This document shows positions 33,561 through 61,425 of a stretch of 64,000 nucleotides of DNA, piece after piece. The notes below the pieces were generated by a model. That model worked only from the letters and a program-made list of their open reading frames with translations. It ran no database searches and was not told the DNA's origin. The position numbers and the translations under genes are program-made. Location of the stretch: assembly GCA_029250225.1 (NCBI GenBank), contig JAQWUY010000027.1:9917-73916 (forward strand), read 5' to 3'. Each line of letters begins with the position of its first letter. Position 1 is the stretch's first letter. This DNA is from Alphaproteobacteria bacterium (lineage in GTDB: Bacteria > Pseudomonadota > Alphaproteobacteria > JAQWUY01).

Positions 33561-36434
33561 TTAATTTTTTAAATTATTATTAATATACGTTACATTTGAA
33601 ATTTCTTTTTTCTTAATATATTTAATTTTTTTCTTAACATTACCATTTTCGCTATCAGTAATTTTATATCTATTTGTTTTCATAAAATCAAATTTTTGCA
33701 ATCCTGTTTTTGATTTATATTTATAATTATTAGCTTTAATTGTAGTGTCTTCATTAGTATTAATTATAAAGCCATCATTAATATTAATTATAGAGTCTTC
33801 ATTGGTATTAATCATAGAGTCATCATTAGTATTAAGTGTAGAATCATCATTAGTATTAATTATAGAGTCGTCATTAATAATTAATTCTTTTTCATTAGAT
33901 CCACCCCACATATTAATTTCAACATTATTATTATTACTAATATTTTGTATAAGAGAAGCAATGTCAGAGTTAAAGGAAATTAATTCATTCTCTGTGCCTA
34001 AAGTGGTTTTTGAAGTAATATCATTGTTTTCCTGAGCCACCTCGGTAAGTTCATAATTATCTGCACTTTTAGAAACTAAGCATCTCGAATTATTAAAGAC
34101 ACAATAATTATTTAATCTGTTTTTTAATTTTAAAAATAATTGATCGGTTTTAATTTTATCAATATATCTTACTTGACCGTTTCTAAATTCAGGTAAATCA
34201 AACAGGTATACTGCACCTTTTTTTCTATTAATGCCATAAGCACCAACAGCAAGTTTATAACCATCTGCATCGCTACCAATTAAGCTTACCGAAGAACCGA
34301 AATAGTCACGAAAATGCAACCTACTTTCTGGGTTTAAATTTAATTGTTTTTTACCAATTTTATCAACATATCTTACTTGACCGTTTCTAAATTCAGATAA
34401 ATCAAAAAGGTATACTGCACCCTTTTTTCTATTAATGCCATAAGCACCAACAGCAAGTTTATAACCATCTGCATCGTTACCAATTAAGCTTACCGAAGAA
34501 CCGAAATTATCCCTATTATGCAACCTACTTTCTGGGTTTAAATTTAATTGTTTTTTACCAATTTTATCGACATATGTTATTAGGCCATTTCTAAGATTAT
34601 CTACATTAAACAAGTATACCGAACCTCTATATTTACTATCTCCATAAGCACCAACAGCAAGTTTATAATCACCCGTATCGTCAGCAACTAAGCTCACCGA
34701 AGAATTAAAATAATCGTAATTATGTAACTTGTTTTCTTTTTTATATCTAAATAATAAATTTAAATAGCTAATATTCTTCATTTTACTAACAAGAAGATTT
34801 TTAGGGTCTAACAATACTGTTCCAAAAGATTGACCAGAAACCTCCACTTTTGAAAATTTATATGATCTTGAAGATTTTTTACCAAATACTTGTACCCAGC
34901 CTCCATCATTAAAACCATTAGCTTTAATATTACCAAATTGTTGTGTTACACCATTCGACCATAAAACAACTGTACCACCATCTCCATTTACACTAGATGC
35001 ATCAACAAGTGCATCATACCCCAAAGATGTTTTATAAGAAGTTGGTAGATTTAAAAGGTTATCACCAAATACAGATGTCCAACGATCACGGAAACCTGTT
35101 AATACATTTTCGTCATACTCTTCAGATAGATTTCCCCCTCCAAATTCACCGCCTATACGAATTAAACCACCGGCTCTGTAACCTGTTGCAATAATTTTAG
35201 TACCATCCATCACAATAATATTACCATTATCAGTCGAAATATCAATTAAACCACCACGACCAGAAAAACCAGAGGCTGAAATTTTACCCTGTGTAATCAA
35301 TCGTTTTGAACCCGTATTAATACGAATAATGCCACCATCACCATTACCGTCTGATAGTATATTAGATTTTGCAAAAATATTAATATCTGAGTTAGATGAT
35401 ATAGATACTGCACCACCGCTAGAAGCAGGGGCTTTACCAGATGCATCTATCAAGCCTGTCTGAGTGTAAGAAGTAGAAGTAATATTTACATCACCTCCTT
35501 TTACATTAATAACATCACTAGAAACATCAACTGTGCCATTAAGGGAAACATCAGGCCCACTAATAATAATTTTACCTCTATCGGAAGAGGATACCGATTT
35601 TGCCTGAACAAGACCACGAATGTTTATAACTCGACGAAGGGTTTTTCTAACTGTGCCAACACTTAATTTTACTAAACCACCATATGATATAACTTTACCG
35701 CCATTATTTACGGAAATTATTTCTGATAATTTAATTCCATTAACATCCCTAATTGTATTTAAATTACTTGTTGGAATTTCAACACGCAAAAATTCAGAGT
35801 CACCTATGTTGAGAATGACCTTTTCTCCTGCACCGAAACCGACTTTACTTAAATGAGCCGTTACAACACCACCATTATCAATCGCACCGCCAAGTAAGGC
35901 AACAAAACCGCCATCATTAACCGCTATACTGCCGTTGTTTGTAACCACAGCACCAGCCTTTCCTGATTGCTTTACAAAAGATAGTTCTCCCCTTTTAAAA
36001 TCTTCGTTAGAAATATCTAGTGTAGAAGCCGAAAAAGAATTTGTATTAATAAGCCCATTTTCTGTGATTAAAATACCATTAGGATTAACTAAAAAAATCT
36101 GACCATTGGCTTTAATTCGTCCTGCTATGGTAGAGGGCGTAGAACCTAAAACACGATTTAAAGATTGTGATTGCGTTCTGGGTTGAACAAATTCAACCAA
36201 TTTATTTTGACCGACATCAAATGAACTCCAATCAATAATTGTCTTATCTGTATATTGATTAACTTTAATAAAATCTCGACCTTGGTTAATGCTAGCCTCA
36301 CCAGACTTTACAATACCACCGATTGGCAGTTCAGATGCCAAAACATCTCCACCCAATAAAAAGAAAAAAGATAAGAAAAACGAACACGACTTAATTATTC
36401 TCATCAAATTTTTATGCGAATTAAACATAACCAT
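33561..36434 (-). CDS. two-partner-secreted exoprotein (TpsA; filamentous haemagglutinin-type) with FG-GAP repeat C-terminal region
   Basis: 957 aa. An extended signal peptide is followed by a canonical TPS secretion domain (NRVLGSTPSTIAGRIKANGQIFLVNPNGI). A Gly/Asn-rich beta-helix region follows. Then come 3.5 copies of a roughly 68-aa FG-GAP-like repeat (FGSSVSLIGNDADGYKLAVGAYGINRKKGAVYLF). The protein ends in an Asn/Asp-rich decapeptide tandem repeat (NDDSIINTND). Confidence 0.8.
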   Translation of the reverse strand: MVMFNSHKNLMRIIKSCSFFLSFFFLLGGDVLASELPIGGIVKSGEASINQGRDFIKVNQYTDKTIIDWSSFDVGQNKLVEFVQPRTQSQSLNRVLGSTPSTIAGRIKANGQIFLVNPNGILITENGLINTNSFSASTLDISNEDFKRGELSFVKQSGKAGAVVTNNGSIAVNDGGFVALLGGAIDNGGVVTAHLSKVGFGAGEKVILNIGDSEFLRVEIPTSNLNTIRDVNGIKLSEIISVNNGGKVISYGGLVKLSVGTVRKTLRRVINIRGLVQAKSVSSSDRGKIIISGPDVSLNGTVDVSSDVINVKGGDVNITSTSYTQTGLIDASGKAPASSGGAVSISSNSDINIFAKSNILSDGNGDGGIIRINTGSKRLITQGKISASGFSGRGGLIDISTDNGNIIVMDGTKIIATGYRAGGLIRIGGEFGGGNLSEEYDENVLTGFRDRWTSVFGDNLLNLPTSYKTSLGYDALVDASSVNGDGGTVVLWSNGVTQQFGNIKANGFNDGGWVQVFGKKSSRSYKFSKVEVSGQSFGTVLLDPKNLLVSKMKNISYLNLLFRYKKENKLHNYDYFNSSVSLVADDTGDYKLAVGAYGDSKYRGSVYLFNVDNLRNGLITYVDKIGKKQLNLNPESRLHNRDNFGSSVSLIGNDADGYKLAVGAYGINRKKGAVYLFDLSEFRNGQVRYVDKIGKKQLNLNPESRLHFRDYFGSSVSLIGSDADGYKLAVGAYGINRKKGAVYLFDLPEFRNGQVRYIDKIKTDQLFLKLKNRLNNYCVFNNSRCLVSKSADNYELTEVAQENNDITSKTTLGTENELISFNSDIASLIQNISNNNNVEINMWGGSNEKELIINDDSIINTNDDSTLNTNDDSMINTNEDSIININDGFIINTNEDTTIKANNYKYKSKTGLQKFDFMKTNRYKITDSENGNVKKKIKYIKKKEISNVTYINNNLKN
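33740..33895. repeat. about five tandem copies of a 30-bp repeat inside tpsA (encoding NDDSxINTND)
   Basis: The unit ATCATTAGTATTAATTATAGAGTCTTC is visible by eye (33745-33890). A reverse-strand ORF with a reiterated peptide (ESSLVLII x4) mirrors it. Confidence 0.75.
34150..34760. repeat. about four tandem copies of a 204-bp repeat inside tpsA (FG-GAP repeat units); first two copies nearly identical
   Basis: Copy starts lie at about 34166 and 34370 (period 204 bp) and differ by only a few nucleotides. Copies at about 34560 onwards are progressively diverged. Confidence 0.8.
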
Positions 36435-40942: not shown

Positions 40943-41827
40943 ATGGTTGAAATATCAAAACTAGGAAAAGCAAATATTATATCAATTCAATCTTGTGTAA
41001 GTTACGGTCACGCAGGAAATTCATCAGCAGTTTTTCCAATGCAAAGGCTTGGTTATAATGTTTTACCTGTTCACACGGTATTGTTCTCAAATCATACAGG
41101 TTATGGCGATTGGGGCGGGGAAATTATCGACACAAAAATAGTTAGTTCTGTAATCGATGGCATTGAAAAAAGGGGAGTATTCCCAATTACATCAGCTATT
41201 GTTTCTGGTTATATGGGGACAATTGAATTAGGTGATATAATACTTGATACAGTTAAGCGAGTAAAAAAAGCAAACAGTGATGCAATATATGTGTGTGATC
41301 CTGTTTTTGGTGATGTAGGTAGGGGAATTTTTGTTAATAAGGAATTGCCAGATTATTTTCGTGATTTTGTTATACCTGAATGTGATATATGTACACCAAA
41401 TATGTTTGAACTTGAATATTTAACAAATACAAAAGTAAAAACTATTGATGAAGCTATTAATTCAGCAAGAACTTTATTAAATAAAAACTGTAAGTCGGTA
41501 TTGGTAACATCACTAGAACACGAAAAAACAGAGGCTGATACTATTGAAATGTTAGCGGTACAATCTGATAAAGCATTTCATATTAAAACAAAAAAACTAG
41601 TAATGCCAATTTCTCCGAATGGTTCAGGTGACGCTACAACTGCATTATTTGTATGTCATTATCTTGAAAGTAAAGGTGATATGAAAACTACCCTAGAAAA
41701 AACCACAAGTGGTATTTATGAGATATTTGATACAACACAAAAATCAGGAACCCGAGAATTACAGATTGTTGCAAGTGGTGATAAATTAGTTAAGCCTGAG
41801 CATATATTTACTGCTGAACAAATATAA
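40943..41827 (+). CDS. pdxY: pyridoxal/pyridoxamine kinase (PdxY/PdxK, ribokinase-like)
   Basis: 294 aa. ISIQSCVSYGHAGNSSAVFPMQRLGYNV matches the PdxY N-terminal signature, and a C-terminal GSGDA-type ATP motif (PNGSGDATTAL) is present. Confidence 0.7.
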   Translation: MVEISKLGKANIISIQSCVSYGHAGNSSAVFPMQRLGYNVLPVHTVLFSNHTGYGDWGGEIIDTKIVSSVIDGIEKRGVFPITSAIVSGYMGTIELGDIILDTVKRVKKANSDAIYVCDPVFGDVGRGIFVNKELPDYFRDFVIPECDICTPNMFELEYLTNTKVKTIDEAINSARTLLNKNCKSVLVTSLEHEKTEADTIEMLAVQSDKAFHIKTKKLVMPISPNGSGDATTALFVCHYLESKGDMKTTLEKTTSGIYEIFDTTQKSGTRELQIVASGDKLVKPEHIFTAEQI

Positions 41828-41839
41828 TTTAAATGAATG

Positions 41840-42538
41840 TTATTCGCTAACAACTCTTGCAAAGCAAACTGCATAAATTTGTTTTGCACCTGAGTTTAAT
41901 AAAGTTTTGCTAAGTTCGTTAATTGTTGCACCAGTTGTATGAACATCATCAACAATTAGAATGTTTTTATTCTTAATATTTGCATTATTTATTACAAACG
42001 CTGATCGAATATTTTTCACCCTAGCAGAAAAAGATTTATTACCTTGTGAAGCCGTATTTTTTATTCGTTTTACGCGAGTATAATCACAAGGTTTATTTAT
42101 ATTTTTTCCGATTATTTTTGCAAGATATGCAGATTGATTATACTTTCTTTTTAACAATCTAAATTTATGTAATGGCACCGGAATTATTAAATCAATATCG
42201 TCAACAAAATCTTGTATAACTTTTGTCATTTCATTTGCCATATACGGGGCTATATGCGTGCCATCTCCGTGTTTAAATTTTAATATTAAAGGTGATGAAT
42301 TATCATTATAAACAACAGCACTACGCAAAATATATTTAGGTTTATTTCTTAAACATACCCCGCAATATTTACCTTTGGTTTTATTTACAAAAGGTTTACC
42401 ACAGCTTTTGCAATTTGGCGCAGTTATGAATGATATATCTTTGAAGCAATCACTACATAAACCGTAATCCATATTAATAGTTTTACATTTCAAACAGGTA
42501 TGAGGAATGATAAAATCAATTATTTTACGCATAAACAT
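41840..42538 (-). CDS. ComF-family phosphoribosyltransferase-domain protein
   Basis: 232 aa. It has N-terminal Cys pairs (CLKC...CSDC; CKSC...CGVC) and a C-terminal PRTase motif (ILIVDDVHTTGATI). It shares its stop/start base with the upstream ABC ATPase gene. Confidence 0.6.
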   Translation of the reverse strand: MFMRKIIDFIIPHTCLKCKTINMDYGLCSDCFKDISFITAPNCKSCGKPFVNKTKGKYCGVCLRNKPKYILRSAVVYNDNSSPLILKFKHGDGTHIAPYMANEMTKVIQDFVDDIDLIIPVPLHKFRLLKRKYNQSAYLAKIIGKNINKPCDYTRVKRIKNTASQGNKSFSARVKNIRSAFVINNANIKNKNILIVDDVHTTGATINELSKTLLNSGAKQIYAVCFARVVSE

Positions 42539-43818
42539 TACAACTTAATAACCTTGTGTGATATGGATTGAATCGCTTCATAATCGTGACTAGCAAAAAT
42601 AATTGCGGTGTTAAATTTTGCTTGTAAATCATATATTAGTTTTAAAATCATATTCTTATTATAACTATCTAGCGCCGAAGTTATTTCATCTGCTAAAATC
42701 AAATCCGGATTAGAAATAAAAGCACGGCCAATGCTTATCCTTTGACATTCACCGCCTGCAAATTGATTTGGTTTATCAAATATTCTACTTTCATCGATTC
42801 CAACTTTATTTAATATTTTTATTACTTTTTGTTTTTTTTCCTCAGCACTATATTTATTACCCAATGGTTCAGATACAATATCAAGAATTGTTAATTTTGG
42901 ATTTAATGCACCCCTTGCATCTTGGAAAATCATTTGTATATTATCTGATTTTTTAATTGTTCCAGAAATAGGGTTTAACTGTCCCATAATTCCCCTAAAT
43001 ATAGTTGATTTACCTATACCACTTTCCCCGAACAATCCGACGCATTCACCCAAGGATACATTAAAAGATAAATCTTTTATTACAGGTTTATTATTATATC
43101 CTAGTGCAACATTTTTAAGAGTTGTTATTATATCACCGGTTTTATTTTTATTTTTTTTAATTGGTATTAGCTGTAATAAATCTTTGCCTTGTTTAGTACT
43201 CGGAGATTTAAAAAATCTTTTTGTGTCCGTATATTCAGATATCGTGCCATTATTAATATGAATTATTTTATTAGTAATTTTTTCCATTAATTTCATATCG
43301 TGACTTACCCAAATTAAAATACAATCAGTTTTTTGCGCATATGATAATAATTCTTTTACAACTAGTTGCGTATTTTTTTCATCAAGGTTTGCGGTTGGTT
43401 CATCTAGTAATAAGATATTCGGCTCGCGGTGTAAATTAATAGCTAAACTTGCTCGCATTTGTTGCCCGCCACTTATTAAATCAACATATGATTTTTTATA
43501 ATCATCTAGACCTAATTTACTTAATAATTTTTTTGCTAATTTTAATTTACCAACCCCATCGCAAACCTGAGTGATAATTTTATAATTCGGAGCTATGCTG
43601 TTTTTTGCATTTTGGTATAAAAAACCTAGCTTGCCTGAATACTCTATTTTACCAGTTGCTTTTTTATCAATATTTACAATAGATTTTAACAGGCTAGTTT
43701 TTCCTGAGCCTGAATAACCAACCACACCTATTATATCGCCTTTGTTTGCAGAAAACGAAATATCTTTTAATAATTGTTTATTATTAATACATAATGATAA
43801 ATTATCTACTGTTATCAT
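42538..43818 (-). CDS. ABC transporter ATP-binding protein with two fused nucleotide-binding domains (NikD-NikE/DppD-DppF-like)
   Basis: 426 aa. It has two Walker A motifs (GYSGSGKTS; GESGIGKST), two ABC signatures (LISGGQQMR; FAGGECQR) and two Walker B motifs (LLLDEP; ILADEI). Confidence 0.8.
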   Translation of the reverse strand: MITVDNLSLCINNKQLLKDISFSANKGDIIGVVGYSGSGKTSLLKSIVNIDKKATGKIEYSGKLGFLYQNAKNSIAPNYKIITQVCDGVGKLKLAKKLLSKLGLDDYKKSYVDLISGGQQMRASLAINLHREPNILLLDEPTANLDEKNTQLVVKELLSYAQKTDCILIWVSHDMKLMEKITNKIIHINNGTISEYTDTKRFFKSPSTKQGKDLLQLIPIKKNKNKTGDIITTLKNVALGYNNKPVIKDLSFNVSLGECVGLFGESGIGKSTIFRGIMGQLNPISGTIKKSDNIQMIFQDARGALNPKLTILDIVSEPLGNKYSAEEKKQKVIKILNKVGIDESRIFDKPNQFAGGECQRISIGRAFISNPDLILADEITSALDSYNKNMILKLIYDLQAKFNTAIIFASHDYEAIQSISHKVIKL

Positions 43819-44584
43819 TTTTTATTCTTTCGCTATATTTAATAAATGAAAATGTTGTCAAGACCATTGCAACACCAACCGGAATTGCAAAATACGGATC
43901 AATAAACCAAGAATTTTGCACATCAAGCATCATCGACCCCCAAGTTGGTTCAGAACTATCAACAGATAATCCCAAGTATCCCAAACCTGCTTCGGATACA
44001 ATAGCAATGGCAAATTGAATTGTACATTGTGCCAAGATAATATGATAAATATTAGGTATAATATGTACAAACATTATTTGATATTTTGACAACCCACTTA
44101 ATCGTGCCGATGCAACAAAATCTGATTGCCATACACTGCGAGAAGATAAATAGATAACACGATAAAAAACAGGTATAAAAAATATTCCTATGCTAATAAT
44201 TGCAATTTGTATTGATGGGCCAAATATAGCAACTAATATCAAAGCAACTAATACCTTGGGAAATACAAATAATATATCGATGCCTCCGCTTACAACATAT
44301 CGCCAATTAGTTTTTTTTCTGCTCATTAACAATGCTAAAAAACCACCTATTAGCAAACTTATTAATATACTAGAAATGCCAATTATACCAACATTATAAG
44401 AACCTCTTATCATACGGAAAAAAATATCTCGTCCTAAGAAATCAGTGCCAAATAAATGATTAACACTTACAGAGGCTGAACGATTTAACATATCCATATC
44501 ATTATAATATTGACTGGGTAATAATGCACCGACTAACATACTAATAAAAAACATTATTATAATATATTTATAAATTTTATGCAT
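43802..44584 (-). CDS. ABC transporter permease (NikC/DppC/OppC family)
   Basis: 260 aa. It has the N-terminal HLFGTDFLGRDIFFRMIRGS signature of the DppC/NikC permease family and six TM segments. Confidence 0.8.
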   Translation of the reverse strand: MHKIYKYIIIMFFISMLVGALLPSQYYNDMDMLNRSASVSVNHLFGTDFLGRDIFFRMIRGSYNVGIIGISSILISLLIGGFLALLMSRKKTNWRYVVSGGIDILFVFPKVLVALILVAIFGPSIQIAIISIGIFFIPVFYRVIYLSSRSVWQSDFVASARLSGLSKYQIMFVHIIPNIYHIILAQCTIQFAIAIVSEAGLGYLGLSVDSSEPTWGSMMLDVQNSWFIDPYFAIPVGVAMVLTTFSFIKYSERIKNDNSR

Positions 44585-45500
44585 TGTATCCCTTTCGTAA
44601 AGAAGGGGTAATAATGTAGGCTATAAAATCAACAATACTATTAATCAAAATTATAAACAAAGCACTTTTCATTACAATATATCCGGCTAAAAATACATCT
44701 CGTTTTAATATTGCTTGGTATAATAAATCACCAATACCTGGCATTGCAAAAATATGTTCAACAACGACAATGCCGGTGAATAAAAAACCTATTTGCAAAC
44801 CAATAATACTAAGTAAAGAACCACTAATTGCAGGTAACCCGTATTTTAATAAAACATGTACTTTCGAAAAACCTACCACTTGATAAAAATGAATAAAATC
44901 TGAATTTTGAATTTCTAGTAATCCAACCCTTACATAACGGGCAAAAACACCTGCTTGGCTTATCCCTAGTGCAAGACACGGCATCAAATAGTGTTGCCAC
45001 ATTCCAATCCCTCCGCTAGGTAAAATATTTAATGAAAGTGAAAATATCATTATAAATAATAATGACAACCATACAACGGGAAATGAAATCATTAAAATAA
45101 TTATGTTATTCCAAAATGAATTATTACTTACAACACTAATTATGCCTAATAACAAGCCCAATGAAATTGATATTAAAAAAGCAAATAATGCAATTGGTGC
45201 AGAAATTACAATTCTTTCATTTACTATGTCAATAACTGGAACTTCAAAAATCAAACTATTACCAAAATTACCTTGGGCGACGGCATTAAACCACCAAAAA
45301 AATCTTGATATAACAGATTGATTTAACCCCATCTGATTTCGGATTTGTTGCGCATCACCTTCCGTGCCGGCTATAATATCGGCTACATCACCCGATAATT
45401 GTTCGATGCCTAAAAATGTAATCAACATTACCACCAATATAGATAATAATAATTTGATTAATATCTTCATTAATCCTTTTATATTACTGCCAATAAACAT
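44577..45500 (-). CDS. ABC transporter permease (NikB/DppB/OppB family)
   Basis: 307 aa polytopic protein with a BPD_transp_1-type core. It overlaps both neighbours. Confidence 0.75.
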   Translation of the reverse strand: MFIGSNIKGLMKILIKLLLSILVVMLITFLGIEQLSGDVADIIAGTEGDAQQIRNQMGLNQSVISRFFWWFNAVAQGNFGNSLIFEVPVIDIVNERIVISAPIALFAFLISISLGLLLGIISVVSNNSFWNNIIILMISFPVVWLSLLFIMIFSLSLNILPSGGIGMWQHYLMPCLALGISQAGVFARYVRVGLLEIQNSDFIHFYQVVGFSKVHVLLKYGLPAISGSLLSIIGLQIGFLFTGIVVVEHIFAMPGIGDLLYQAILKRDVFLAGYIVMKSALFIILINSIVDFIAYIITPSLRKGYNA

Positions 45501-46932
45501 CTTTTAAAATATTTCCTGCTACTGGATAGTTTTTCCACATTCCAGATAATTTTTTATTCCAAACTCCGATTTTAGGTGCCTGATACAACCAAACATTTAC
45601 CGCATCATCAGATAATGTAACTTGGATTTTCTGCAACAATTGAAGTCTTTTATTTTTATTTATTTCTGTTTTTAATTTTTTAATTAAATCTTGGTAATGT
45701 GAATTATTGTAACCAAAATAATAATTTTTACGGGCATAAATACCATAATCTTTTGGTTCTAGGTGAGCAATTATTGTAATATCATAATCATATTTTTTAT
45801 ATGTTTGCGATAACCAAGTCCCCCAATCAACATTTTTCATTTTTACCTTAATGCCTACTTTACGCAAATAACTAGCAATCACATCAGCAGATGTTTTATA
45901 TGATGGTGGAACCGTAAATTCTAGTGTCATATTATCCGCTCCGGCTTGTTTTAATAATTTTTTTGCTAGTCCTGCATTATATGGATATTTATTAGACAAA
46001 TCAACATAGCCCTCTGCGTGTGGTGGATAATGCGAACCGATAGGTTTTGCCGAAGGCGAGACAATACTTATAAGGCTTTTTTTATCGATTGCATAATTTA
46101 ATGCTTTTCTTACTTGTGGATTTGATAAAAACTTATGCCTATTATTTAATGCTAGTAATACTTCCCCTTCTGTCGAACCGAAAACAACATTAAATCTATC
46201 TTTTTTAAATGCAGGTAATGTCATCACATCTTGATAAACAGGGAAGCCGTCAATTTCACCACTTAATATCGCAGATGATGCAGATAATGAGTCACTGATA
46301 AAGCGGAATTTTGCTGATTTAAGTTTTGCTGGTTTAGAGTGGTATTTTTCAAAACGATTAATTTTAACAAAATACCCTTTTTTCATTGAATCAAAAATAA
46401 ACGGCCCTGTGCCAATTGGATTGTTTTTGTTATTTTTATATGAACGATGATTAAATATCACCGCTTCTGGACGAGCTAAATCGTAAATCAAAGAGTCGCT
46501 AGATGATTTTAATAATACAACAACTGTATTATTATCAACTTTAAAAATTGTTTTCACATTATCAAGCAAAGACTTCCTAGGGTTAATAGAATCCTTGTTA
46601 AAAATTCTAGATATTGAAAATACAATATCATCAGCACTTAACTTATCACCATTGTGAAAATAAACATTATCTTTAATATAAAATGTATACTTTTTAAAAT
46701 CTTTTGAAATTTTGTAATCTTTTACTAATAAGTTTTTTACACCGCCACTTTCAGTAATCTGAAACAATCCTTCAAAAATGTTGCCGTAAACAACCTCATC
46801 TATTGCACTAGCCGAATTTATAGTAGGGTCAAGATGCGGAGGTTCCAACTTCATACCTATTGTTATATTATCTTTTGCCAAGGCAACAGAACTTATAAAA
46901 ATAGAAATAAGTAATATTATAATTTTCTTCAC
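45484..46932 (-). CDS. ABC transporter substrate-binding protein, family 5 (peptide/nickel/cobalt-type, NikA/DppA-like)
   Basis: 482 aa. It has a signal peptide (MKKIIILLISIFISSVALA) and an SBP_bac_5-like N-terminal region (MKLEPPHLDPTINSASAIDEVVYGNIFEGLF). Confidence 0.75.
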   Translation of the reverse strand: MKKIIILLISIFISSVALAKDNITIGMKLEPPHLDPTINSASAIDEVVYGNIFEGLFQITESGGVKNLLVKDYKISKDFKKYTFYIKDNVYFHNGDKLSADDIVFSISRIFNKDSINPRKSLLDNVKTIFKVDNNTVVVLLKSSSDSLIYDLARPEAVIFNHRSYKNNKNNPIGTGPFIFDSMKKGYFVKINRFEKYHSKPAKLKSAKFRFISDSLSASSAILSGEIDGFPVYQDVMTLPAFKKDRFNVVFGSTEGEVLLALNNRHKFLSNPQVRKALNYAIDKKSLISIVSPSAKPIGSHYPPHAEGYVDLSNKYPYNAGLAKKLLKQAGADNMTLEFTVPPSYKTSADVIASYLRKVGIKVKMKNVDWGTWLSQTYKKYDYDITIIAHLEPKDYGIYARKNYYFGYNNSHYQDLIKKLKTEINKNKRLQLLQKIQVTLSDDAVNVWLYQAPKIGVWNKKLSGMWKNYPVAGNILKDVYWQ

Positions 46933-46995
46933 ATTGACAATTCCTGAAATAAAAAATATGTAGTAATCAATGGTAAAGCTTATATAATAATGGCT

Positions 46996-47709
46996 CTATG
47001 TCAACATAAAACTATTATTTGGCATTATTTCCAAAATATTTTTGCTATTATCTTGTGGGCGATCAAGCATAAATATAGGTATCTTGCGTTTAATGGCAAC
47101 TGCAATTTTATTATAATTCATATCACCGCCTGAATTCTTGCAAACTAAGGCTTGGAAATTATATTTATCGAACAATAATTGCTCGTTATTTATACTATAA
47201 GGCCCTTTATCAACAAGGCATTCACCATTATTTATAGGAATTTTTTTCACAGTTCTAGCAATTACATAACAATTTAAATCATTATAATCACCCATTGATT
47301 TTGCCCCTAGGGTGAAAAACACATTGCCCTTAATGTTGGCTAGTTTTTGTTTTATTTCATTACTATCTTTGCAATTAATCCAATCGTCATCGTTGTTTTT
47401 TTGCCATTCTTTACGAATATAGCGAATTGTTTCAATGTCTAGTTCTTGGCTAACAATGTTAACTGTATTTGTAATATTGCTAGCATATGGGTGTGTTGCA
47501 TTAATTATTTTGGTAATATTATTTTTAATTATATAATTTTTTAAACCATTTATACTATCGTTTTGTTCAGAAAAACCACCTATTCTAACCTGTGCGTTTT
47601 TTGGTGTAGCCGGATTATCCGTTACCCCAGCAATAGAATAAATATATGGTTGAGTTAATTGCTCGCCAATTTTAATAGCATCTCTTGTTCCGCCTAATAA
47701 TAATATCAT
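46996..47709 (-). CDS. cbiJ: cobalt-precorrin-6A / precorrin-6A reductase
   Basis: 237 aa. MILLLGGTRDAIKIGEQL and INATHPYASNIT match the CobK/CbiJ conserved blocks. Confidence 0.8.
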   Translation of the reverse strand: MILLLGGTRDAIKIGEQLTQPYIYSIAGVTDNPATPKNAQVRIGGFSEQNDSINGLKNYIIKNNITKIINATHPYASNITNTVNIVSQELDIETIRYIRKEWQKNNDDDWINCKDSNEIKQKLANIKGNVFFTLGAKSMGDYNDLNCYVIARTVKKIPINNGECLVDKGPYSINNEQLLFDKYNFQALVCKNSGGDMNYNKIAVAIKRKIPIFMLDRPQDNSKNILEIMPNNSFMLT

Positions 47710-47712
47710 ATT

Positions 47713-48786
47713 TTAATCCTTAATATGTGAAATAACATCACCGCTTCTATTTACAATTAATACATTAACTTTCTTGATTTTTTTACCAATTTTTTTAGCC
47801 TGATTTTGCGCACAAATTGCTATGTGATGACCTATGTTTAAACTGGGGCTAATTGTAGTCAAAACTTCCAATGCAGTATTAGCCGTTTTAACAAAATTAA
47901 TTTCATTATCACTACCGCCTATCTGTTCAACAAATTCAGATAATTTTTGAAAATCAACCTGTGATCTAGACGAATGCAAATCACGGTTTCCTTGTGCAAG
48001 TTTTACCATTTTTGCAAACCCGCCTGATATTGTAATTTCCTCAACATTATTATTACTAGCATATTTTAACATACCCCCGACAAAATCACCCATATCTATA
48101 TATGACTCATTTTTCAAACCCAATACTTGCATTGCCTTGTTTTCAGAAGTTTTACCAGTTGAGCCAACCATATGCTGAATATTCATCGCCATCGCCACAT
48201 CTATCCCGCGGTATATTGAATGTATCCACGCACTACACGAATACGGTATAACAACCCCACTTGTGCCAAGTATTGATAATCCATCAGTTATACCTAATCT
48301 AGGGTTCCAAGTTTGCTTAGCCAAATCTTCCCCGTTTTTTATGGATACTTCAACTATCCAATTATTATGCCCTGAAATTGCCACAATGTTTTTTTCTATC
48401 ATTTGGCGAGGTTTTGGGTTTATAGCAGGTTCACCAACATCAAGCGGTAAACCTTTTTTAGTAACTGTTCCTACACCTTTGCCCGCAATAAATTTTATAT
48501 TATTTGCTTTATTCTTCTTTATTTTTACTGTTATTTCACAATTATGAGTAATATCCGGATCATCACCCGCATCTTTGATAGTAGATGCAATTGCTTGATT
48601 TTCATCAAATTCAAAATTAAAAATCTTAAACTCTTTTGCTCCCGCCGGTAAATCAATTGTAATAGTATCAACTTTTTCTTGCTTAATAATCCCGTATACA
48701 CAAGCACTAGAACAAGCTGTGGCACAGGCTCCTGTGGTCCAACCTTTCTTTAATTTTTTTGTATTTATTATTTCTTTTTCACTCAT
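47713..48786 (-). CDS. cbiD: cobalt-precorrin-5B (C1)-methyltransferase
   Basis: 357 aa. The blocks LKKGWTTGACATA, GKGVGTVTKKGLPLDVGEPAINPKPRQMI and NPRLGITDGLSILGTSGVVIPYS closely follow the Salmonella CbiD conserved regions. This enzyme is specific to the anaerobic (early cobalt insertion) route. Confidence 0.85.
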   Translation of the reverse strand: MSEKEIINTKKLKKGWTTGACATACSSACVYGIIKQEKVDTITIDLPAGAKEFKIFNFEFDENQAIASTIKDAGDDPDITHNCEITVKIKKNKANNIKFIAGKGVGTVTKKGLPLDVGEPAINPKPRQMIEKNIVAISGHNNWIVEVSIKNGEDLAKQTWNPRLGITDGLSILGTSGVVIPYSCSAWIHSIYRGIDVAMAMNIQHMVGSTGKTSENKAMQVLGLKNESYIDMGDFVGGMLKYASNNNVEEITISGGFAKMVKLAQGNRDLHSSRSQVDFQKLSEFVEQIGGSDNEINFVKTANTALEVLTTISPSLNIGHHIAICAQNQAKKIGKKIKKVNVLIVNRSGDVISHIKD

Positions 48787-48832
48787 AATAATTTATGTTA
48801 TATGATATTAATGAACAGACGATAACACTTTT

Positions 48833-49654
48833 ATGACAAACATACTAAAACTATTTTCAAAATCCAAGAAAGATTCAAAACATAATCAAAATTTTGATAG
48901 CTTTTCCCCGACTTTTGAAAAAGGTACAGTTTGGATTGCTGGTTCTGGGCCTGGTGATGTTGGCTTGCTAACAATTAATGTTTTTAATGCATTAAAAAAT
49001 GCCGATATAATCGTTTACGATGCATTAGTTAATAAAGAAATCCTAGATCTAGCAAACCATAAATGCGAAAAAGTATATGCCGGTAAACGAGGTGGCAAAC
49101 CAAGCACAAAACAAAAAGATATATGTGATATATTAATTAAGTTCGCAAAATCTGGCAAGCGAGTACTAAGATTAAAAGGCGGTGACCCTTTTGTTTTTGG
49201 TCGCGGTGGCGAAGAGGCGATAGCATTAAAACGAAATAATATTAATTTTCGCATAATACCTGGAATTACCGCAGGTATTGGCGGTATGGCATATGCAGGA
49301 ATTCCCGCCACACACCGTGAAACAAATTACACTATAACTTTTGTAACTGGACACGCAAGTTCAGGGGAAATTCCTGATAATATATGTTGGAAATCATTAT
49401 CAGCTCCATCACAAGTACTAGTATTATATATGGCATTAAAACATATTGATAATATTACAAACAAATTAATAAATTCTGGTAAAGATAAAAACACACCTGT
49501 TGCTATTGTACAAAATGCAACAATGAAAAATATGAAAATTCAAACTGGTAAATTATCTGAACTAATTGAGATTGCTAAAAACTTTGAACCGCCGGCTATT
49601 GTTGTCATAGGCGAAGTGGTTAATTTACAAGAAACATTAAATTGGCTTAAATAA
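48833..49654 (+). CDS. cobA: uroporphyrinogen-III C-methyltransferase (SUMT)
   Basis: 273 aa. VWIAGSGPGDVGLLTINVFNALKNADIIVYDALV is the class III tetrapyrrole methylase N-terminal signature, and VLRLKGGDPFVFGRGGEE is the second motif. Confidence 0.85.
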   Translation: MTNILKLFSKSKKDSKHNQNFDSFSPTFEKGTVWIAGSGPGDVGLLTINVFNALKNADIIVYDALVNKEILDLANHKCEKVYAGKRGGKPSTKQKDICDILIKFAKSGKRVLRLKGGDPFVFGRGGEEAIALKRNNINFRIIPGITAGIGGMAYAGIPATHRETNYTITFVTGHASSGEIPDNICWKSLSAPSQVLVLYMALKHIDNITNKLINSGKDKNTPVAIVQNATMKNMKIQTGKLSELIEIAKNFEPPAIVVIGEVVNLQETLNWLK

Positions 49655-49655
49655 A

Positions 49656-50963
49656 ATGACAAGTGTTCTTATTGCTGGGGCTTCAACAAATAGCGGTAAA
49701 ACAATTATTACCGCATCGATATTAAGAGCATTAAAAAATCGTGGCTTAAATGTTCGTGGTGGTAAAATCGGGCCTGATTATATCGACCCGAAATTTCACG
49801 CTATCGCTAGTGATAGTTTTTCATTAAATGTCGATGCTTGGGCAATGAATGACAATACTTTACACCGCAACCTAGCAACAATGGAACAAGATTCAGATAT
49901 TACAATAATTGAAGGAGTAATGGGATTATTTGATGGGGCTAGTGATGGTAGCGCTTCATCAGCAGAAGTTGCTAAAAAAATGGGCTTGCCTATTATTCTT
50001 TGTCTTGATGTGTGGGGGCAAAGTCAATCAATATCTGCTATTGTAAATGGCTTTGATACATTGGACAAAGACATTAAAATATCTGGAATAATATTAACTA
50101 GAATTGGCACCGAAAAACATTTAAAAATATTAAAACAATCATTACAAAAATATATCCCGCATATTCCACTAATCGGCACAATATTTCGTAATGAAATATT
50201 TGAACTAGAATCAAGACATCTTGGATTAGTACACCCATCATCGGAAAATGATAAAACATTAAATAAATTGCTAGATAAAACCGCTAATATTATTTCACAA
50301 CAAGTTGATTTAGATAAATTAATTAGCATAGGTAAAAAATCAAAAGCCATAACAAATGATAAAATTGCAATACCTAAGTTTAGTAATCATATCGCTGTGT
50401 CATATGATAAAGCGTTTAGTTTTTGCTACCCACATATTATAAACAGTTGGAAAAAAGAAGGAGCTGAGATTTCATTCTTTTCCCCACTAAATGATGAAGC
50501 ACCAGATGAAAACGCATCTTCAATTTATTTATGCGGTGGCTATCCTGAATTATACTGTGAAACCCTTGCCAAGAATAAAATATTTAAATTAGGAATGTTA
50601 AAACACGCCGAAAAAGGAACATTTATATTTGGTGAATGTGGGGGGTTTATGACACTCGGTAAATCAATCACCGATAAAAATAATGTTGAACATAAAATGC
50701 TAGGGTTGCTAGATTTAAAAACATCGTTCGCTAAGAAAAAATTACATTTATCTTATCAGAATATTAAATTATTAAAAGAGTGTAACCTAGGCACAAAAAA
50801 TTCATTATTCAAAGGACACGAATTTCACTATGCAACAATCACACATCAATCAGGTGAACCTTTGTTTGAAGTTAATAATGCTTGTAACAGTAAAAATGAA
50901 ATAGTAGGGCTGGTAAATAATAATGTAATTGGTTCATTTATTCATTTAATTGATAAAATTTAA
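49656..50963 (+). CDS. cbiA: cobyrinate a,c-diamide synthase
   Basis: 435 aa. The N-terminal AAA_26/CobB ATP-binding region is VLIAGASTNSGKTIITASILRAL, and the C-terminal GATase domain contains GECGGFMTLG. The start overlaps the cobA stop. Confidence 0.8.
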   Translation: MTSVLIAGASTNSGKTIITASILRALKNRGLNVRGGKIGPDYIDPKFHAIASDSFSLNVDAWAMNDNTLHRNLATMEQDSDITIIEGVMGLFDGASDGSASSAEVAKKMGLPIILCLDVWGQSQSISAIVNGFDTLDKDIKISGIILTRIGTEKHLKILKQSLQKYIPHIPLIGTIFRNEIFELESRHLGLVHPSSENDKTLNKLLDKTANIISQQVDLDKLISIGKKSKAITNDKIAIPKFSNHIAVSYDKAFSFCYPHIINSWKKEGAEISFFSPLNDEAPDENASSIYLCGGYPELYCETLAKNKIFKLGMLKHAEKGTFIFGECGGFMTLGKSITDKNNVEHKMLGLLDLKTSFAKKKLHLSYQNIKLLKECNLGTKNSLFKGHEFHYATITHQSGEPLFEVNNACNSKNEIVGLVNNNVIGSFIHLIDKI

Positions 50964-53463: not shown

Positions 53464-54975
53464 TTATTGATATGTTACATCGTAAGTAAATTCCTTCGCA
53501 TTATACTTAGTTCCACCTTCTAATTTCAATTTAATTTTTATTGTTCCTGAATTACCAGCACCAGTGCTAGTAGGATTAGCGACTAATTTATTCCCCGTAA
53601 AGCTACCTGTATTAATACCTGTAATCCCACCATCATCTGTCACCTCAAATGATAGAGTACCCATTTCAGTTGCATTATAAGCTACTTCACTTGAGCCGTT
53701 AGAAGAAGTAGAAAGTTTAAGATTACTTGCAGTAGGAAGAGTATATTGAGCACTATCAGCAATAGTAAGGTTAGAACCACTCAAACTAGAACCCAAATAA
53801 CCATAAGGATTGTTAGCACGATTAATTGTAACATTATAATCAACTGTTTTTTCATTATACTTATTATTAGTCGTAATTACTGCTCGAATTTTTATAGTGG
53901 TAGAAGTACCTGAACTGATAGTTGCACCGCTAAGGCTAAGAGTGCTACCTGAAATTGTCGCATTTGTAGTATTGTTTGCGTTGTTTATTGAGTATCTTAC
54001 CGTACCCATTGTATTAGAGGCATATCCAGTGCTACTAGCTAAAGCAACATCAACAGTACCGCCTAAAGTTGCTGTAAAACTAGGAGCGGTAATAGTTATG
54101 TTTTGTTTATCAAACTCTACATTGTATGTTCCAACATTACCAGAATTATACTTAGTACCGCCAGATGCTGATACTGTAACAGTTACTGAACCGGATTGAT
54201 CAGCAGAAACAACACCATTACTTATACTAAAACCAGAAGTACCCGACGGAATTGCATATGTAAGCGAACCCATTTCAGTTGTATTATAACTAGATGGTGT
54301 TACTGCTGCCACTGTTGTTCCCCATGCTACTGAGGTAGGGTTGCTAAATGATAATGCAGTTGCAGATTGTCTATCAAATGTTATAGTGTATGATCCAATA
54401 GTAGCACCAATGTATTGATTACCACCAAGTGTTGTTACTCGAACATTAATTGTACCAAATGAAGTAGCACCAGAAGCCACACCTGTAGAGCTATTCACAG
54501 AAGCACCAGTATTATTTGTGCCAATAATAGTATATGCATAAGCACCATATTTAGCTGAATTATAATCATTTGGAGCCGTAATAAGACTACTAGGCGAAGC
54601 GGAATTAGCATAAGAACTACCTGAAGCAATCACAGTTGCAGGATTTCCACTTACATTAAAACCACTCGGTGCATTAGTATTAATTGTAACATTATAATCA
54701 ACTGTTGCTGCATTATAATAACCATTAGCCGCAATTATTGCTCGAATTTGTATAGTGGCAGAAGTACCTGAACTGATAGTTGCACCGCTAAGGCTAAGAG
54801 TACTACCTGAAATTGTCGCACCTGTAGTATTGCCTGTGCTGTTTATTGAGTATGTTACCGCACCCATTGTACTAGAATCGTATCCAGTGCTACTAGCTAA
54901 AGCAACATCAACAGTACCGCCTATAGTTGCTGTAAAACTAGGAGCGGTAATACTTGTAATAACTAATCTTTTTTC
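53464..54975. repeat. tandem duplication of an approx. 860-bp unit within the surface-protein gene
   Basis: The ORF-track frames at 53897-54199 and 54755-55060 translate to about 85%-identical peptides offset by 858 bp. At the protein level, residues about 315-603 correspond to about 604-817. Confidence 0.8.
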
Positions 54976-60414: not shown

Positions 60415-60483
60415 ACTCTCCTTTAAACGAAATTCAAATTAATTGTTATAATATAGAACTAAAAAAGTAAAGAAATTTAATTA

Positions 60484-61425
60484 TTATAAATTAACCTTAA
60501 ACCCTTTACCTTTTAAATCAAATTTACCGTCGGCAACGCTATACATCCAATTTGCTGATTTTTTTAACCCCCCTAACGGGTACATATGCATTTGTTTAAT
60601 TAAACAATCTTTGTCCAAATGCGATGCAACAGCTAGTTGGCGAACTAATACATCAGGTTCAGAACAAGGGGCATTAATATATTTACCTATAAATGTATCT
60701 TTTAATATCAATTTTGCTGTGGTGCTTGGTTGCTTTGTAAGCATACGCATTGAGGGGCCAACTCCACACATTTTTGCAAGTTTTAATAAAGTTTTAACAC
60801 TTGCCAAACCGGGAACACCAATATGTATTGGTAATTCGTTACCCGCATCACGAATTCTTTTTTCCCATTTAAGGCAAGGTTCAGATTCAAATGCAAATTG
60901 AGTAGCAATATAAAGTTTCATATCAGTATCTTTTGCATAAGCATTTTTTTCACGAATAGCTTTCATACAATCCGCATCTGGGATATCTGGCGAACCTTCT
61001 GGGTGTCCTGCAACTCCCATTTTTTTAATACCGTATTTTTCAAATAATCCTGTTTTTAAAACTTCCATAGAACAAGAAAAATCTCCGACCTGATTATCAA
61101 CCCCACCGCCTACTAACAATCCTTCTTCTACACCAGTTTCATCTTGTAATAATTGTAAATTTTGCTCTAAAAATTTTGCTGATGGAATAGAGCGGGCTGC
61201 AAAATGGGGAACTGGGTTGAAGCCTTCTTGTTTTAATTTTTTTACAGTTTTTATTGTATCGGCAAAATCTGAATTAGGTAAAAATGTAACATAAACCGTT
61301 GTTCCAGTTCTTAAAATATCGTTAAAATTAGCTATTTTTTCTGCACCTCTTGGTGTTTCTTCAATAGTTGCTTTTTTTACAAAATCTATAATTATTTGTT
61401 TTTCTTGTTCTTTACTTAAATGCAT
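60484..61425 (-). CDS. metF: 5,10-methylenetetrahydrofolate reductase (MetF family)
   Basis: 313 aa TIM-barrel MTHFR-like protein with FAD-binding region blocks (VYVTFLPNS; HFAARSIPSAKFLEQNL; IATQFAFESEP). Confidence 0.75.
   Translation of the reverse strand: MHLSKEQEKQIIIDFVKKATIEETPRGAEKIANFNDILRTGTTVYVTFLPNSDFADTIKTVKKLKQEGFNPVPHFAARSIPSAKFLEQNLQLLQDETGVEEGLLVGGGVDNQVGDFSCSMEVLKTGLFEKYGIKKMGVAGHPEGSPDIPDADCMKAIREKNAYAKDTDMKLYIATQFAFESEPCLKWEKRIRDAGNELPIHIGVPGLASVKTLLKLAKMCGVGPSMRMLTKQPSTTAKLILKDTFIGKYINAPCSEPDVLVRQLAVASHLDKDCLIKQMHMYPLGGLKKSANWMYSVADGKFDLKGKGFKVNL

What the first reader, a model, noticed from the sequence alone, without database searches (positions are those of the whole stretch)
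41840..48786. cbiD-cbiJ co-operonic with a NikABCDE-like ABC importer: candidate cobalt uptake system dedicated to corrin synthesis
On the minus strand, cbiD (47713-48786), cbiJ (46996-47709), a family-5 substrate-binding protein, two NikB/NikC-type permeases, a compact fused double-NBD ATPase and a ComF-like PRTase protein follow one another. Gaps are at most 63 nt and several start/stop codons overlap, so they form one transcription unit. Family-5 (peptide/nickel) importers are known to include Ni and Co transporters. Embedding one between cobalt-precorrin enzymes argues for cobalt specificity rather than peptide uptake. No CbiMNQO genes are seen in the window. The trailing ComF-family gene is an odd passenger and may be functionally coupled.
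Basis: inference. Interest (0 to 1): 0.55.

Follow-up and report, generated by a model that had tools for sequence, protein, structure and literature searches.

The report
Peptide-type ABC importer beside corrin genes
A complete peptide/nickel-family ABC importer does follow two vitamin-B12 ring-synthesis genes in this uncultured marine alphaproteobacterium, but the tight junction comes from a recent deletion and nothing in the binding protein points to cobalt, so the cobalt-importer idea stays unproven.

Summary
The gene run is real: cbiD, cbiJ, a family-5 binding protein, two permeases, a 426-aa fused double ATPase and a ComF-like gene. They lie on the minus strand with gaps of at most 63 nt and no terminator.

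The cobalt reading rests only on position. Seven of eight related genomes with visible flanks keep cbi genes beside the transporter, but unrelated comF/coaBC genes are kept beside it just as faithfully. One relative has the transporter with no cbi genes within 10 kb. The closest relative (87% identity) and three others carry a tupABC-like operon between cbiJ and the binding-protein gene. The window has lost 2.4 kb there, so the single-operon layout is recent.

The binding protein lacks the E. coli NikA nickel-site residues and the NikZ double-histidine motif. It keeps an acidic residue where DppA anchors a peptide amino group. Its sister clade is almost always preceded by an ArgE/DapE-type M20 deacylase. 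No B12 riboswitch was found, but the window's other cob genes lack one too.

My best reading (0.42) is an importer of a small peptide-like organic ligand, placed here by conserved synteny and a deletion. Cobalt or cobalt-chelate import remains possible (about 0.3). B12-linked Nik-type systems have already been predicted in the literature.

The parts
47713..48786 (-). cbiD, (cobalt-)precorrin-5B C1-methyltransferase, first gene of the run
   Evidence: PF01888 at 2.5e-86. NF000849 scores 401 bits, above its cut-off of 348.
46996..47709 (-). cbiJ/cobK, precorrin-6A reductase. Its last codons and TAG stop now lie inside the former promoter region of the SBP gene.
   Evidence: PF02571 at 7.9e-47. 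Comparison with L097.
47012..47034 (-). Deletion junction. About 23 nt stand in for a 2.38-kb segment that carries a tupABC-like operon in relatives.
   Evidence: blastn: window 48800-47035 matches L097 5774-7538, and window 47011-45400 matches L097 9920-11533. The Tup-like genes are present in L097, L007, L008 and L095.
46979..47004 (-). Relic of the SBP operon's own sigma-70-type promoter: TTGACA (47004-46999), a 14-nt spacer, then TATAAG (46984-46979).
   Evidence: L097 has a perfect TTGACA-16-TATAAT at the homologous place, 46 nt before the ATG. The window has lost 2 nt of the spacer. The promoter scan does not list it.
45484..46932 (-). Periplasmic family-5 (cluster C) substrate-binding protein, 482 aa, with a Sec signal peptide (…VALA|KD).
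   Evidence: PF00496 at 5.3e-69. AF2 model has pLDDT 90. Foldseek gives TM 0.8-0.88 to many cluster-C SBPs. Residue mapping.
44577..45500 (-). Permease subunit of the NikB/GsiC/DppB type
   Evidence: PF00528. Opp2B scores 189 bits and GsiC 175 bits, both below their cut-offs.
43802..44584 (-). Permease subunit of the NikC/GsiD/DppC type
   Evidence: PF00528. Opp1C scores 142 bits and GsiD 132 bits, both below their cut-offs.
42538..43818 (-). Minimal fused double-NBD ATPase (426 aa). Both halves keep the Walker A, signature, Walker B and H-loop motifs. There is no C-terminal oligo_HPY domain.
   Evidence: Two ABC_tran stretches. Alignment with relatives (413-438 aa), sister-clade ATPases (537-552 aa) and GsiA.
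41840..42538 (-). ComF/GntX-like protein (double zinc ribbon plus PRTase). It overlaps the ATPase stop codon by 1 nt and is a syntenic passenger.
   Evidence: PF18912 and PF00156. TIGR00201 scores 112 bits, below its cut-off of 233. Its strand and position vary among relatives.
48833..50963 (+). Divergent partner operon: uroporphyrinogen-III C-methyltransferase (48833-49654) and cobyrinic acid a,c-diamide synthase (49656-50963). Only 46 nt separate it from cbiD.
   Evidence: NF004790 scores 284 bits and NF002204 scores 454 bits, both above their cut-offs.

Best explanation
The five transporter genes encode a complete ABC importer of the peptide/opine/nickel (PepT) family. The parts are a secreted family-5 binding protein, two permeases and a stripped-down fused double ATPase.

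The importer belongs to a small clade found in uncultured marine Alphaproteobacteria. That clade is sister to a large alphaproteobacterial family whose operons usually start with an ArgE/DapE-type M20 deacylase.

I think it most likely imports a small organic ligand with amino and carboxylate groups, such as a peptide-like compound or an amino-acid derivative, rather than cobalt. It lies next to cbiD-cbiJ because this whole neighbourhood (cbiA-SUMT <> cbiD-cbiJ … transporter … comF/coaBC) is conserved by descent in the clade.

In this genome a 2.4-kb deletion removed an intervening, oppositely oriented tupABC-like operon. The deletion also shortened the spacer of the transporter's own promoter. 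The transporter is therefore now probably read through from the cbiD promoter.

Shown here: the gene content, the deletion, the conserved synteny, the absence of Ni/Co signatures and the sister-clade context. Inferred: the ligand class and the read-through transcription.
For: 1. The SBP lacks the EcNikA site. R97, W100, R137, W398, Y402 and H416 correspond to I116, R119, E156, a gap, K394 and R401. It has no C-terminal HH-prong (signature taken from bioRxiv 10.1101/2022.10.03.510666).
2. A Glu (E392) is invariant in the 37-sequence alignment and near-invariant (157 of 159) in the larger set. It aligns with DppA D408, the anchor of the peptide amino group, in three alignments.
3. PDB sequence scores are 5u4o 254, AgaA 234, GsiB 229, DppA 224 and EcNikA 175 bits. 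In the NJ tree, rooted on EcNikA by choice, the family sits next to DppA/GsiB.
4. In the sister clade (about 40% identity) an NF009558 M20 deacylase (740-766 bits) lies upstream in 28 of 71 loci with large flanks and in many short contigs. This parallels iaaA-gsiABCD.
5. The deletion was mapped by blastn. The Tup-like operon lies between cbiJ and the SBP gene in L097, L007 and L008, and next to the SBP gene in L095.
6. comF/coaBC adjoin the transporter in 7 of 7 visible cases, as conserved as cbi at 7 of 8.
7. L095 has the transporter without cbi genes within 10 kb.
8. Promoter-like elements lie directly upstream of the SBP gene in L097, L094 and L178.
Against: The cbi-transporter block stays together even where the outer flanks differ (L094, L178). 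In three relatives cbiJ and the SBP gene are co-directional with gaps of 45-55 nt.

The sister clade also lies near cob genes in several arrangements: 17 of 71 loci with large flanks in the whole data set, close clade included. In L163 and L128 the operon abuts cobD-cobC-cbiA-SUMT <> cbiD-cbiJ.

The close clade has lost the M20 partner and the ATPase C-terminal domain (NikD/E also lack it). It also differs from the sister clade at positions that align with pocket residues: Q119R, R401N, Q472E and loss of the YARR motif. Its ligand may therefore differ.

Several His/Glu/Asp residues are invariant or nearly so (E30, H33, H301, H390, E392, D395). I could not place them in three dimensions, and they could form a metal site. 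No ligand has been measured for any member of the family.
Confidence: 0.42

Rival explanations
1. This is a cobalt importer serving corrin synthesis. It would most plausibly take up Co(II) as a small organic chelate. The SBP would recognise the chelator rather than the metal, as SaNikA/CntA-type proteins do.
For: cbi genes adjoin the transporter in 7 of 8 close-clade genomes, including ones with different outer flanks. The sister clade is repeatedly found near cob genes. No other cobalt transporter was found in the 64-kb window, which also holds cobQ, cobD and a corrinoid-dependent methyltransferase module. The ATPase lacks the oligo_HPY tail, as NikD/E do. Substitutions at pocket-aligned positions separate this clade from the M20-linked one. 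There is published precedent for B12-linked NikABCDE-family systems predicted to carry cobalt (PMC2667541). The missing riboswitch says little, because the window's genuine cob genes lack one too.
Against: The SBP has neither the NikA-type nor the NikZ-type metal ligands. Nearly all invariant residues are shared with the deacylase-linked sister clade. The operon fusion is recent. L095 lacks cbi genes nearby. Unrelated genes are equally syntenic. The nickel-model top hits are non-specific and below their cut-offs.
Confidence: 0.3
2. This is an importer of an organic precursor for corrin synthesis. One candidate is 5-aminolevulinate, a dipeptide mimic that Dpp systems are known to carry (from my own knowledge). 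Another is an aminopropanol or threonine-phosphate-related compound.
For: The positional link to SUMT, cbiA, cbiD and cbiJ is the same as for the cobalt reading. In the sister clade the link is to cobC and cobD, the aminopropanol-arm genes. The DppA-like acidic anchor E392 and an Arg at a pocket-aligned position fit an amino-acid-like ligand. One of the best structural matches, AapF, binds an ethanolamine derivative.
Against: There is no direct evidence. The adjacency argument is weakened by the generally conserved synteny. There is no precedent for such a dedicated system in cob clusters.
Confidence: 0.12
3. This is a nickel importer in the strict NikABCDE sense.
For: The top NCBIfam hits of the four components include nickel models.
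Against: All scores are far below the curated cut-offs. The NikA and NikZ site residues are absent. The annotated window contains no nikR, urease or hydrogenase gene.
Confidence: 0.04

Closest known systems
E. coli NikABCDE nickel importer
   Same: Same PepT-family architecture: a family-5 SBP, two permeases and two NBDs without the oligo_HPY C-terminal domain. The SBP fold is the same, with TM about 0.8.
   Different: The NBDs are fused into one 426-aa protein. The NikA residues that bind the Ni chelate (R97, W100, R137, W398, Y402, H416) are not conserved. No nikR was found. All equivalog scores are below their cut-offs.
NikABCDE-family systems predicted to be cobalt-specific (Clostridium tetani, Desulfitobacterium hafniense; Rodionov 2006 as cited in Zhang et al. 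2009, PMC2667541)
   Same: A peptide/nickel-type ABC importer assigned to cobalt purely from its genomic link to B12 genes.
   Different: Those systems are preceded by B12 riboswitches. None is present here or in 13 related loci. They grouped with NikA orthologues, whereas this SBP does not.
E. coli GsiABCD (glutathione) and DppABCDF (dipeptide/ALA/haem) importers
   Same: GsiA is also a fused double ATPase, and its operon is preceded by a peptidase gene (iaaA), as in the sister clade here. An acidic residue sits at the DppA D408 position. GsiB, GsiC and GsiD score close to the best NCBIfam models.
   Different: SBP identity is only about 21-25%. The ATPase here is about 200 aa shorter than GsiA. 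There is no peptidase gene in the close clade.
CbtJKL of Sinorhizobium meliloti, the only characterised canonical ABC cobalt importer (PMC7689651)
   Same: An alphaproteobacterial ABC importer tied to B12 synthesis.
   Different: CbtJ is a BtuF-like binding protein, not family 5, and the operon is riboswitch-controlled.
CjNikZ / CcNikZ-II chelator-independent Ni/Co-binding SBPs
   Same: Family-5 fold with similar Foldseek scores. These proteins also bind Co(II) in vitro.
   Different: The defining C-terminal HH-prong is absent. The region that aligns with EcNikA Y22-M27 and OppA 32-34, which I take to correspond to the NikZ v-loop, is Gly/Ala/Ser-rich and has no ligand residues.

Membership tests
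PepT-family (peptide/opine/nickel) ABC importer | A family-5 SBP, two BPD_transp_1 permeases and two ABC NBDs encoded together | tested here: met
   Pfam hits PF00496, 2x PF00528 and 2x PF00005 within one polypeptide.
NikABCDE (EcNikA type) | The NikA residues that hold the Ni-chelate: H416, R97, R137, W100, W398, Y402 | tested here: not met
   They align with R401 (N in most clade members), I116, E156, R119, a gap and K394.
NikABCDE (EcNikA type) | Scores above the NCBIfam equivalog cut-offs for NikA/B/C/D/E | tested here: not met
   NikA 125 against 393, NikB 160 against 447, NikC 110 against 358, NikE 232 against 333.
NikABCDE (EcNikA type) | nikR or Ni-enzyme genes nearby | tested here: not met
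   None appears in the annotated 64-kb window.
NikZ-type Ni/Co-binding SBPs | A C-terminal double-His (HH) prong plus a conserved Arg | tested here: not met
   The window SBP has no HH dipeptide. Relatives have HH only at about 285-321 or 439, not in the C-terminal position of the NikZ prong (signature). The conserved Arg was not mapped.
SaNikA/CntA-type (chelate recognised, no protein-metal bond) | A pocket of Arg and aromatic residues that binds a metal-(His)2 or opine complex | not testable with these tools
   This needs model coordinates or binding assays. CntA scores only 69 bits against a cut-off of 800.
B12-linked, predicted cobalt-specific Nik-type transporters | A B12 riboswitch upstream | tested here: not met
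   There is no Rfam hit in the window or in 13 related loci. The cbiD-SUMT gap is only 46 nt.
B12-linked, predicted cobalt-specific Nik-type transporters | Adjacency to B12 biosynthesis genes that is conserved across genomes | tested here: inconclusive
   The count is 7 of 8 in the close clade and 17 of 71 across all loci with large flanks. However, unrelated comF/coaBC genes are equally conserved, one relative lacks cbi, and the operon fusion is a recent deletion.
Dpp/Opp/Gsi-type peptide importers | An acidic residue at the position that anchors the ligand's amino group (DppA D408) | tested here: met
   E392 is invariant in the 37-sequence alignment (157 of 159 in the larger set) and aligns with D408 in three alignments.
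Dpp/Opp/Gsi-type peptide importers | An ATPase C-terminal oligo_HPY extension | tested here: not met
   It is absent from the 426-aa ATPase. A weak Pfam oligo_HPY hit is on record for the 552-aa sister-clade ATPase of L096, and L163's 537-aa ATPase has the same C-terminal extension.
Dpp/Opp/Gsi-type peptide importers | A peptidase or deacylase gene in the operon | tested here: not met
   There is no M20 homologue in the window or next to close-clade transporters. It is present in the sister clade.
CbiMNQO / CbtJKL cobalt transporters | CbiM/N/Q components, or a BtuF-like SBP | tested here: not met
   No such domains occur in the window. The SBP is family 5.
ComF family | An N-terminal zinc ribbon plus a PRTase domain | tested here: met
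   PF18912 at 2.7e-13 and PF00156 at 1.3e-8. TIGR00201 is below its cut-off, 112 against 233.

The most novel reading that the evidence does not exclude
This clade (family-5 SBP with no known Ni/Co signature, minimal fused ATPase, fixed next to SUMT-cbiA <> cbiD-cbiJ) could be a previously unrecognised uptake route for organically complexed cobalt in marine planktonic Alphaproteobacteria. The wider alphaproteobacterial family would share this link to B12 synthesis.
Probability: 0.2. Interest if true: 0.65.

Novelty: new member of a known kind. Interest (0 to 1): 0.3.

Why it matters
If the system carried cobalt, it would add a new binding-protein subfamily to the short list of cobalt importers. 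It could also bear on how marine bacteria obtain cobalt, which as far as I know is largely bound to organic ligands in sea water (my own knowledge, not checked here).

As the evidence stands, the finding shows the limits of guilt-by-association in compact genomes. The apparent operon was created by a recent deletion, and unrelated housekeeping genes are just as tightly and as conservatively linked to the transporter.

The idea that Nik-type ABC systems next to B12 genes carry cobalt is already in the literature, so even the positive outcome would be an extension and not a new principle.

Tried and rejected
- **Riboswitch search.** Rfam at gathering thresholds found no cobalamin riboswitch in the window or in 13 related loci. 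A home-made B12-box regular expression also found nothing. I treat this as uninformative, because the window's own cob genes lack riboswitches too.
- **Fold search.** Foldseek against the PDB does not discriminate. Peptide, glutathione, opine, sialic-acid, haem and nickel binders all match with TM 0.75-0.88.
- **N-acetyltaurine lead.** A TauE gene downstream in Mesorhizobium suggested the Naa system. That system has a different make-up, with two separate ATPases, so I dropped the lead.
- **Shared operator.** I looked for a motif common to the cbi promoter and the SBP upstream region. The ATATGGTA palindrome in L094 and L178 reads better as back-to-back extended -10 boxes, so it indicates a separate promoter and not co-regulation.
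- **OppA mapping from memory.** I first recalled that E30/H33 correspond to the OppA ligand-contact segment 32-34. This was wrong. Alignment with E. coli OppA puts that segment at window residues 41-43.
- **Failed look-ups.** Two window proteins were not on record in the contig look-up, probably because their start codons were called differently.
- **Sampling limits.** The close clade is therefore sampled by only nine distinct genomes.
- **Model coordinates.** The coordinates of the structure model were not available to me, so I could not test whether the invariant His/Glu residues cluster in space.


Full report
**Observation.** Seven ORFs lie on the minus strand at exactly the coordinates given:
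- cbiD 47713-48786
- cbiJ 46996-47709
- a family-5 substrate-binding protein (SBP) 45484-46932, with a GTG start
- two permeases, 44577-45500 and 43802-44584
- a 426-aa protein with two ABC domains, 42538-43818
- a ComF-like protein, 41840-42538

The spacings are 3 nt and 63 nt, followed by overlaps of 17, 8, 17 and 1 nt. Pfam and NCBIfam confirm all the assignments. On the other strand, 46 nt from cbiD, lie a uroporphyrinogen-III methyltransferase (SUMT) and a cobyrinic acid a,c-diamide synthase (cbiA). A consensus scan finds no terminator-like site in 41500-49200, where shuffles give 3.5. The cbiJ-SBP junction RNA folds no better than shuffled sequence (z = -1.6). The same order is seen on independent metagenome assemblies (L001-L006).

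**The organism and the rest of the window.** The window has 31% G+C. Identical or near-identical proteins come from MAGs labelled only 'Alphaproteobacteria bacterium' and from a Tara Oceans surface sample. The window also carries:
- cobQ (14952-16415) and cobD/cbiB (16398-17366)
- a corrinoid-using module at its far end: formate-THF ligase, an MTHFR-like protein, the corrinoid activator RACo and a pterin-binding methyltransferase
- cytochrome bo3 oxidase genes

No CbiMNQO, CbtAB or NiCoT gene is present. Rfam finds no riboswitch anywhere in the 64 kb. The lack of a B12 riboswitch in front of the transporter therefore says little, because the window's genuine cob genes also lack one.

**Relatives: the linkage to cbi genes is conserved, but so is everything else.** SBP homologues fall into two groups. 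A small close clade has 44-87% identity. A very large family at about 40% identity occurs mainly in Alphaproteobacteria, with some members labelled delta- or gammaproteobacterial. I could see the context of nine distinct close-clade genomes.
- **cbi beside the transporter.** SUMT-cbiA <> cbiD-cbiJ lies beside the transporter in the window, L097 (87%), L008, L009 and L094. In L007 the short contig shows only cbiJ. L178 has SUMT-cbiA <> cbiJ but lacks cbiD.
- **Exceptions.** L095 (47%, Tara) has the transporter with no cbi gene within 10 kb. The L177 contig starts at the SBP gene.
- **Unrelated neighbours.** comF and/or coaBC adjoin the transporter in all seven genomes where that side is visible, on either strand and in varying order. 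DUF1491, pdxY, mutS and pepA also recur.

The adjacency to cbi genes is therefore real. It is no better conserved than adjacency to genes that nobody would link to transport. ComF is a syntenic passenger and not a coupled partner.

**The single-operon layout is a recent deletion.** blastn against the 87% relative gives two collinear blocks. Window 48800-47035 matches L097 5774-7538 (cbiD, cbiJ). Window 47011-45400 matches L097 9920-11533 (SBP upstream region and gene). The 2.38 kb between the blocks in L097 holds three minus-strand genes that are absent from the window: a TupA-like binding protein, an ATPase and a TupB-like permease. The same operon lies divergently next to the SBP gene in L007, L008 and L095.

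The window lineage therefore lost this operon, and cbiJ now ends at a TAG inside the old SBP promoter region. L097 has a perfect TTGACA-16-TATAAT 46 nt before the ATG. The window keeps TTGACA (47004-46999) but has lost 2 nt of the spacer and reads TATAAG. Co-transcription with cbiDJ is thus plausible in this genome, perhaps even needed, but it is new.

In L009, L094 and L178, cbiJ abuts the SBP gene without a Tup operon (gaps of 45-55 nt). L094 and L178 nevertheless carry a shared AATATGGTATA element, which reads as an extended -10 box, 27-38 nt before the SBP start. A 19-bp palindrome of the same word sits in the divergent cbi promoter region of both genomes. I read these as ordinary promoters.

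**The binding protein.**
- **Model and fold.** The AF2 model is confident (pLDDT 90). Foldseek matches peptide, glutathione, opine, sialic-acid, haem and nickel binders about equally well.
- **Sequence scores.** A profile of the family scores 254 bits on an uncharacterised Bacillus anthracis SBP. It scores 234 on AgaA, 229 on GsiB, 224 on DppA, 221 on CcNikZ-II, 198 on CjNikZ and 175 on E. coli NikA. In a neighbour-joining tree rooted on NikA by my choice, the family sits next to DppA/GsiB and the close clade is monophyletic.
- **NikA site.** The NikA residues used in the literature to recognise nickel binders (PMC2667541) are not conserved. R97, W100, R137, W398, Y402 and H416 align with I116, R119, E156, a gap, K394 and R401.
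- **NikZ signature.** The C-terminal double-His prong is absent.
- **DppA-like anchor.** A Glu (E392) is invariant in the 37-sequence alignment (157 of 159 in the larger set). It aligns with DppA D408, the anchor of the peptide amino group, in three separate alignments.
- **Cleft loop.** The loop that contacts the ligand backbone in OppA (residues 32-34) is Gly/Ala/Ser-rich here.
- **Unplaced residues.** E30, H33, H301, H390, E392 and D395 are invariant or nearly so. I could not place them in space, so a direct metal site is not excluded.

**The sister clade.** In the 40%-identity family the most constant neighbour is an ArgE/DapE-type M20 deacylase directly upstream. It scores 740-766 bits on NF009558 (cut-off 428). 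It is present in 28 of 71 loci with large flanks and in many short contigs. Other contexts are catabolic, for example tannase-family esterase, FAD monooxygenase and aldehyde dehydrogenase. The ATPases there are 537-552 aa, and L096's has a weak oligo_HPY tail on record. Components of one such system (L163) score Gsi and Nik models about equally. The 'Nik-like' top hits of the window proteins are therefore generic.

This pattern resembles peptidase-plus-importer operons such as iaaA-gsiABCD and argues for an organic ligand. The family is also repeatedly near cob genes:
- In L163 and L128 the operon abuts cobD-cobC-cbiA-SUMT <> cbiD-cbiJ.
- In L096 it is followed by cobC-cobD and then cobQ.
- In Mesorhizobium-like loci cobQ lies three genes away.

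In all, 17 of 71 loci with large flanks have a cob gene, but these fall into only three or four independent lineages. I cannot explain this fully. It is the best argument for a functional tie.

**Differences between the two clades.** The close clade has no M20 partner. Its ATPase is cut down to 413-438 aa yet keeps all catalytic motifs in both halves. It has substitutions at positions that align with pocket residues of NikA, OppA and DppA: Q119R, R401N in most members, Q472E and loss of a YARR motif. A shift in ligand is possible. None of these changes introduces typical metal ligands, and part of the charge change may reflect the Lys-rich composition expected of AT-rich genomes (my inference).

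**Verdict.** The cobalt inference is positional only, and my checks weaken it. I rank the readings as follows:
- An importer of a small peptide-like organic ligand that is next to cbiDJ by conserved synteny and became fused to that operon by a deletion (0.42).
- A cobalt or cobalt-chelate importer (0.30).
- An importer of an organic corrin precursor such as 5-aminolevulinate or an amino alcohol (0.12).
- A nickel importer (0.04).

Nik-type systems next to B12 genes have been predicted to carry cobalt since 2006-2009. The only characterised canonical ABC cobalt importer, CbtJKL, is of a different type. Even if the cobalt reading proved true, this would be a new member of a predicted kind. Binding assays on the SBP and whole-genome co-occurrence within the clade would settle the question.

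Noticed in passing
window 47012-47034; L097 7539-9919: A three-gene tupABC-like ABC operon has been deleted from the window lineage. Its TupA-like SBP scores 239-244 bits in the relatives tested (L008, L095), below the TupA cut-off of 400. The operon is still present in L097, L007, L008 and L095, divergent from the SBP gene. Its substrate (tungstate, molybdate or something else) is unknown.
   Followed up: partly
window 58738-63969 (-): A corrinoid-dependent methyl-transfer module: formate-THF ligase, an MTHFR-like protein, the RACo corrinoid activator and a pterin-binding methyltransferase that is cut by the window end. It shows the organism uses corrinoids.
   Followed up: no
window 14952-17366: cobQ (+) and cobD/cbiB (-) overlap convergently by 18 nt, about 28 kb from the cbiDJ cluster. 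The cob genes are scattered, and none has a riboswitch.
   Followed up: no
window 42538-43818; L007, L008, L009, L094, L095, L097, L177, L178: The fused double-NBD ATPase of this clade is unusually short (392-438 aa, against 537-623 aa in the sister clade and GsiA). It keeps the Walker A, signature, Walker B and H-loop motifs in both halves.
   Followed up: partly
L163 8462-20932; L128; L096 8652-20165: In the sister clade, an operon of M20 deacylase plus SBP5 importer directly abuts cobD-cobC-cbiA-SUMT <> cbiD-cbiJ, or cobC-cobD…cobQ in L096. This recurrent, unexplained association of the whole transporter family with cobalamin genes deserves a genome-wide test.
   Followed up: partly
L094 7983-8001 and 9967-9974; L178 7419-7437 and 8319-8326: A 19-bp palindrome, ATATGGTA-N3-TACCATAT, sits in the divergent cbi promoter region. 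The same 11-mer, AATATGGTATA, lies just upstream of the SBP gene in two relatives. I read these as extended -10 promoter boxes, but a shared operator is not excluded.
   Followed up: partly
L009 7763-9094; L178 7385-7534: The cbiD-cbiJ pair is itself unstable in relatives. A DNA methyltransferase gene is inserted between them in L009, and cbiD is missing from the locus in L178.
   Followed up: no
window 33561-36434 (-) and 53464-55917 (-): Two large surface proteins, a 957-aa protein with a two-partner-secretion (TPS) domain and an 817-aa inverse autotransporter. They suggest attachment to particles or hosts, even though the organism's signature is that of marine plankton.
   Followed up: no
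L095 19443-20930: A full-length 16S rRNA gene lies on the contig of a close-clade relative. It could be used to place this unnamed alphaproteobacterial lineage.
   Followed up: no
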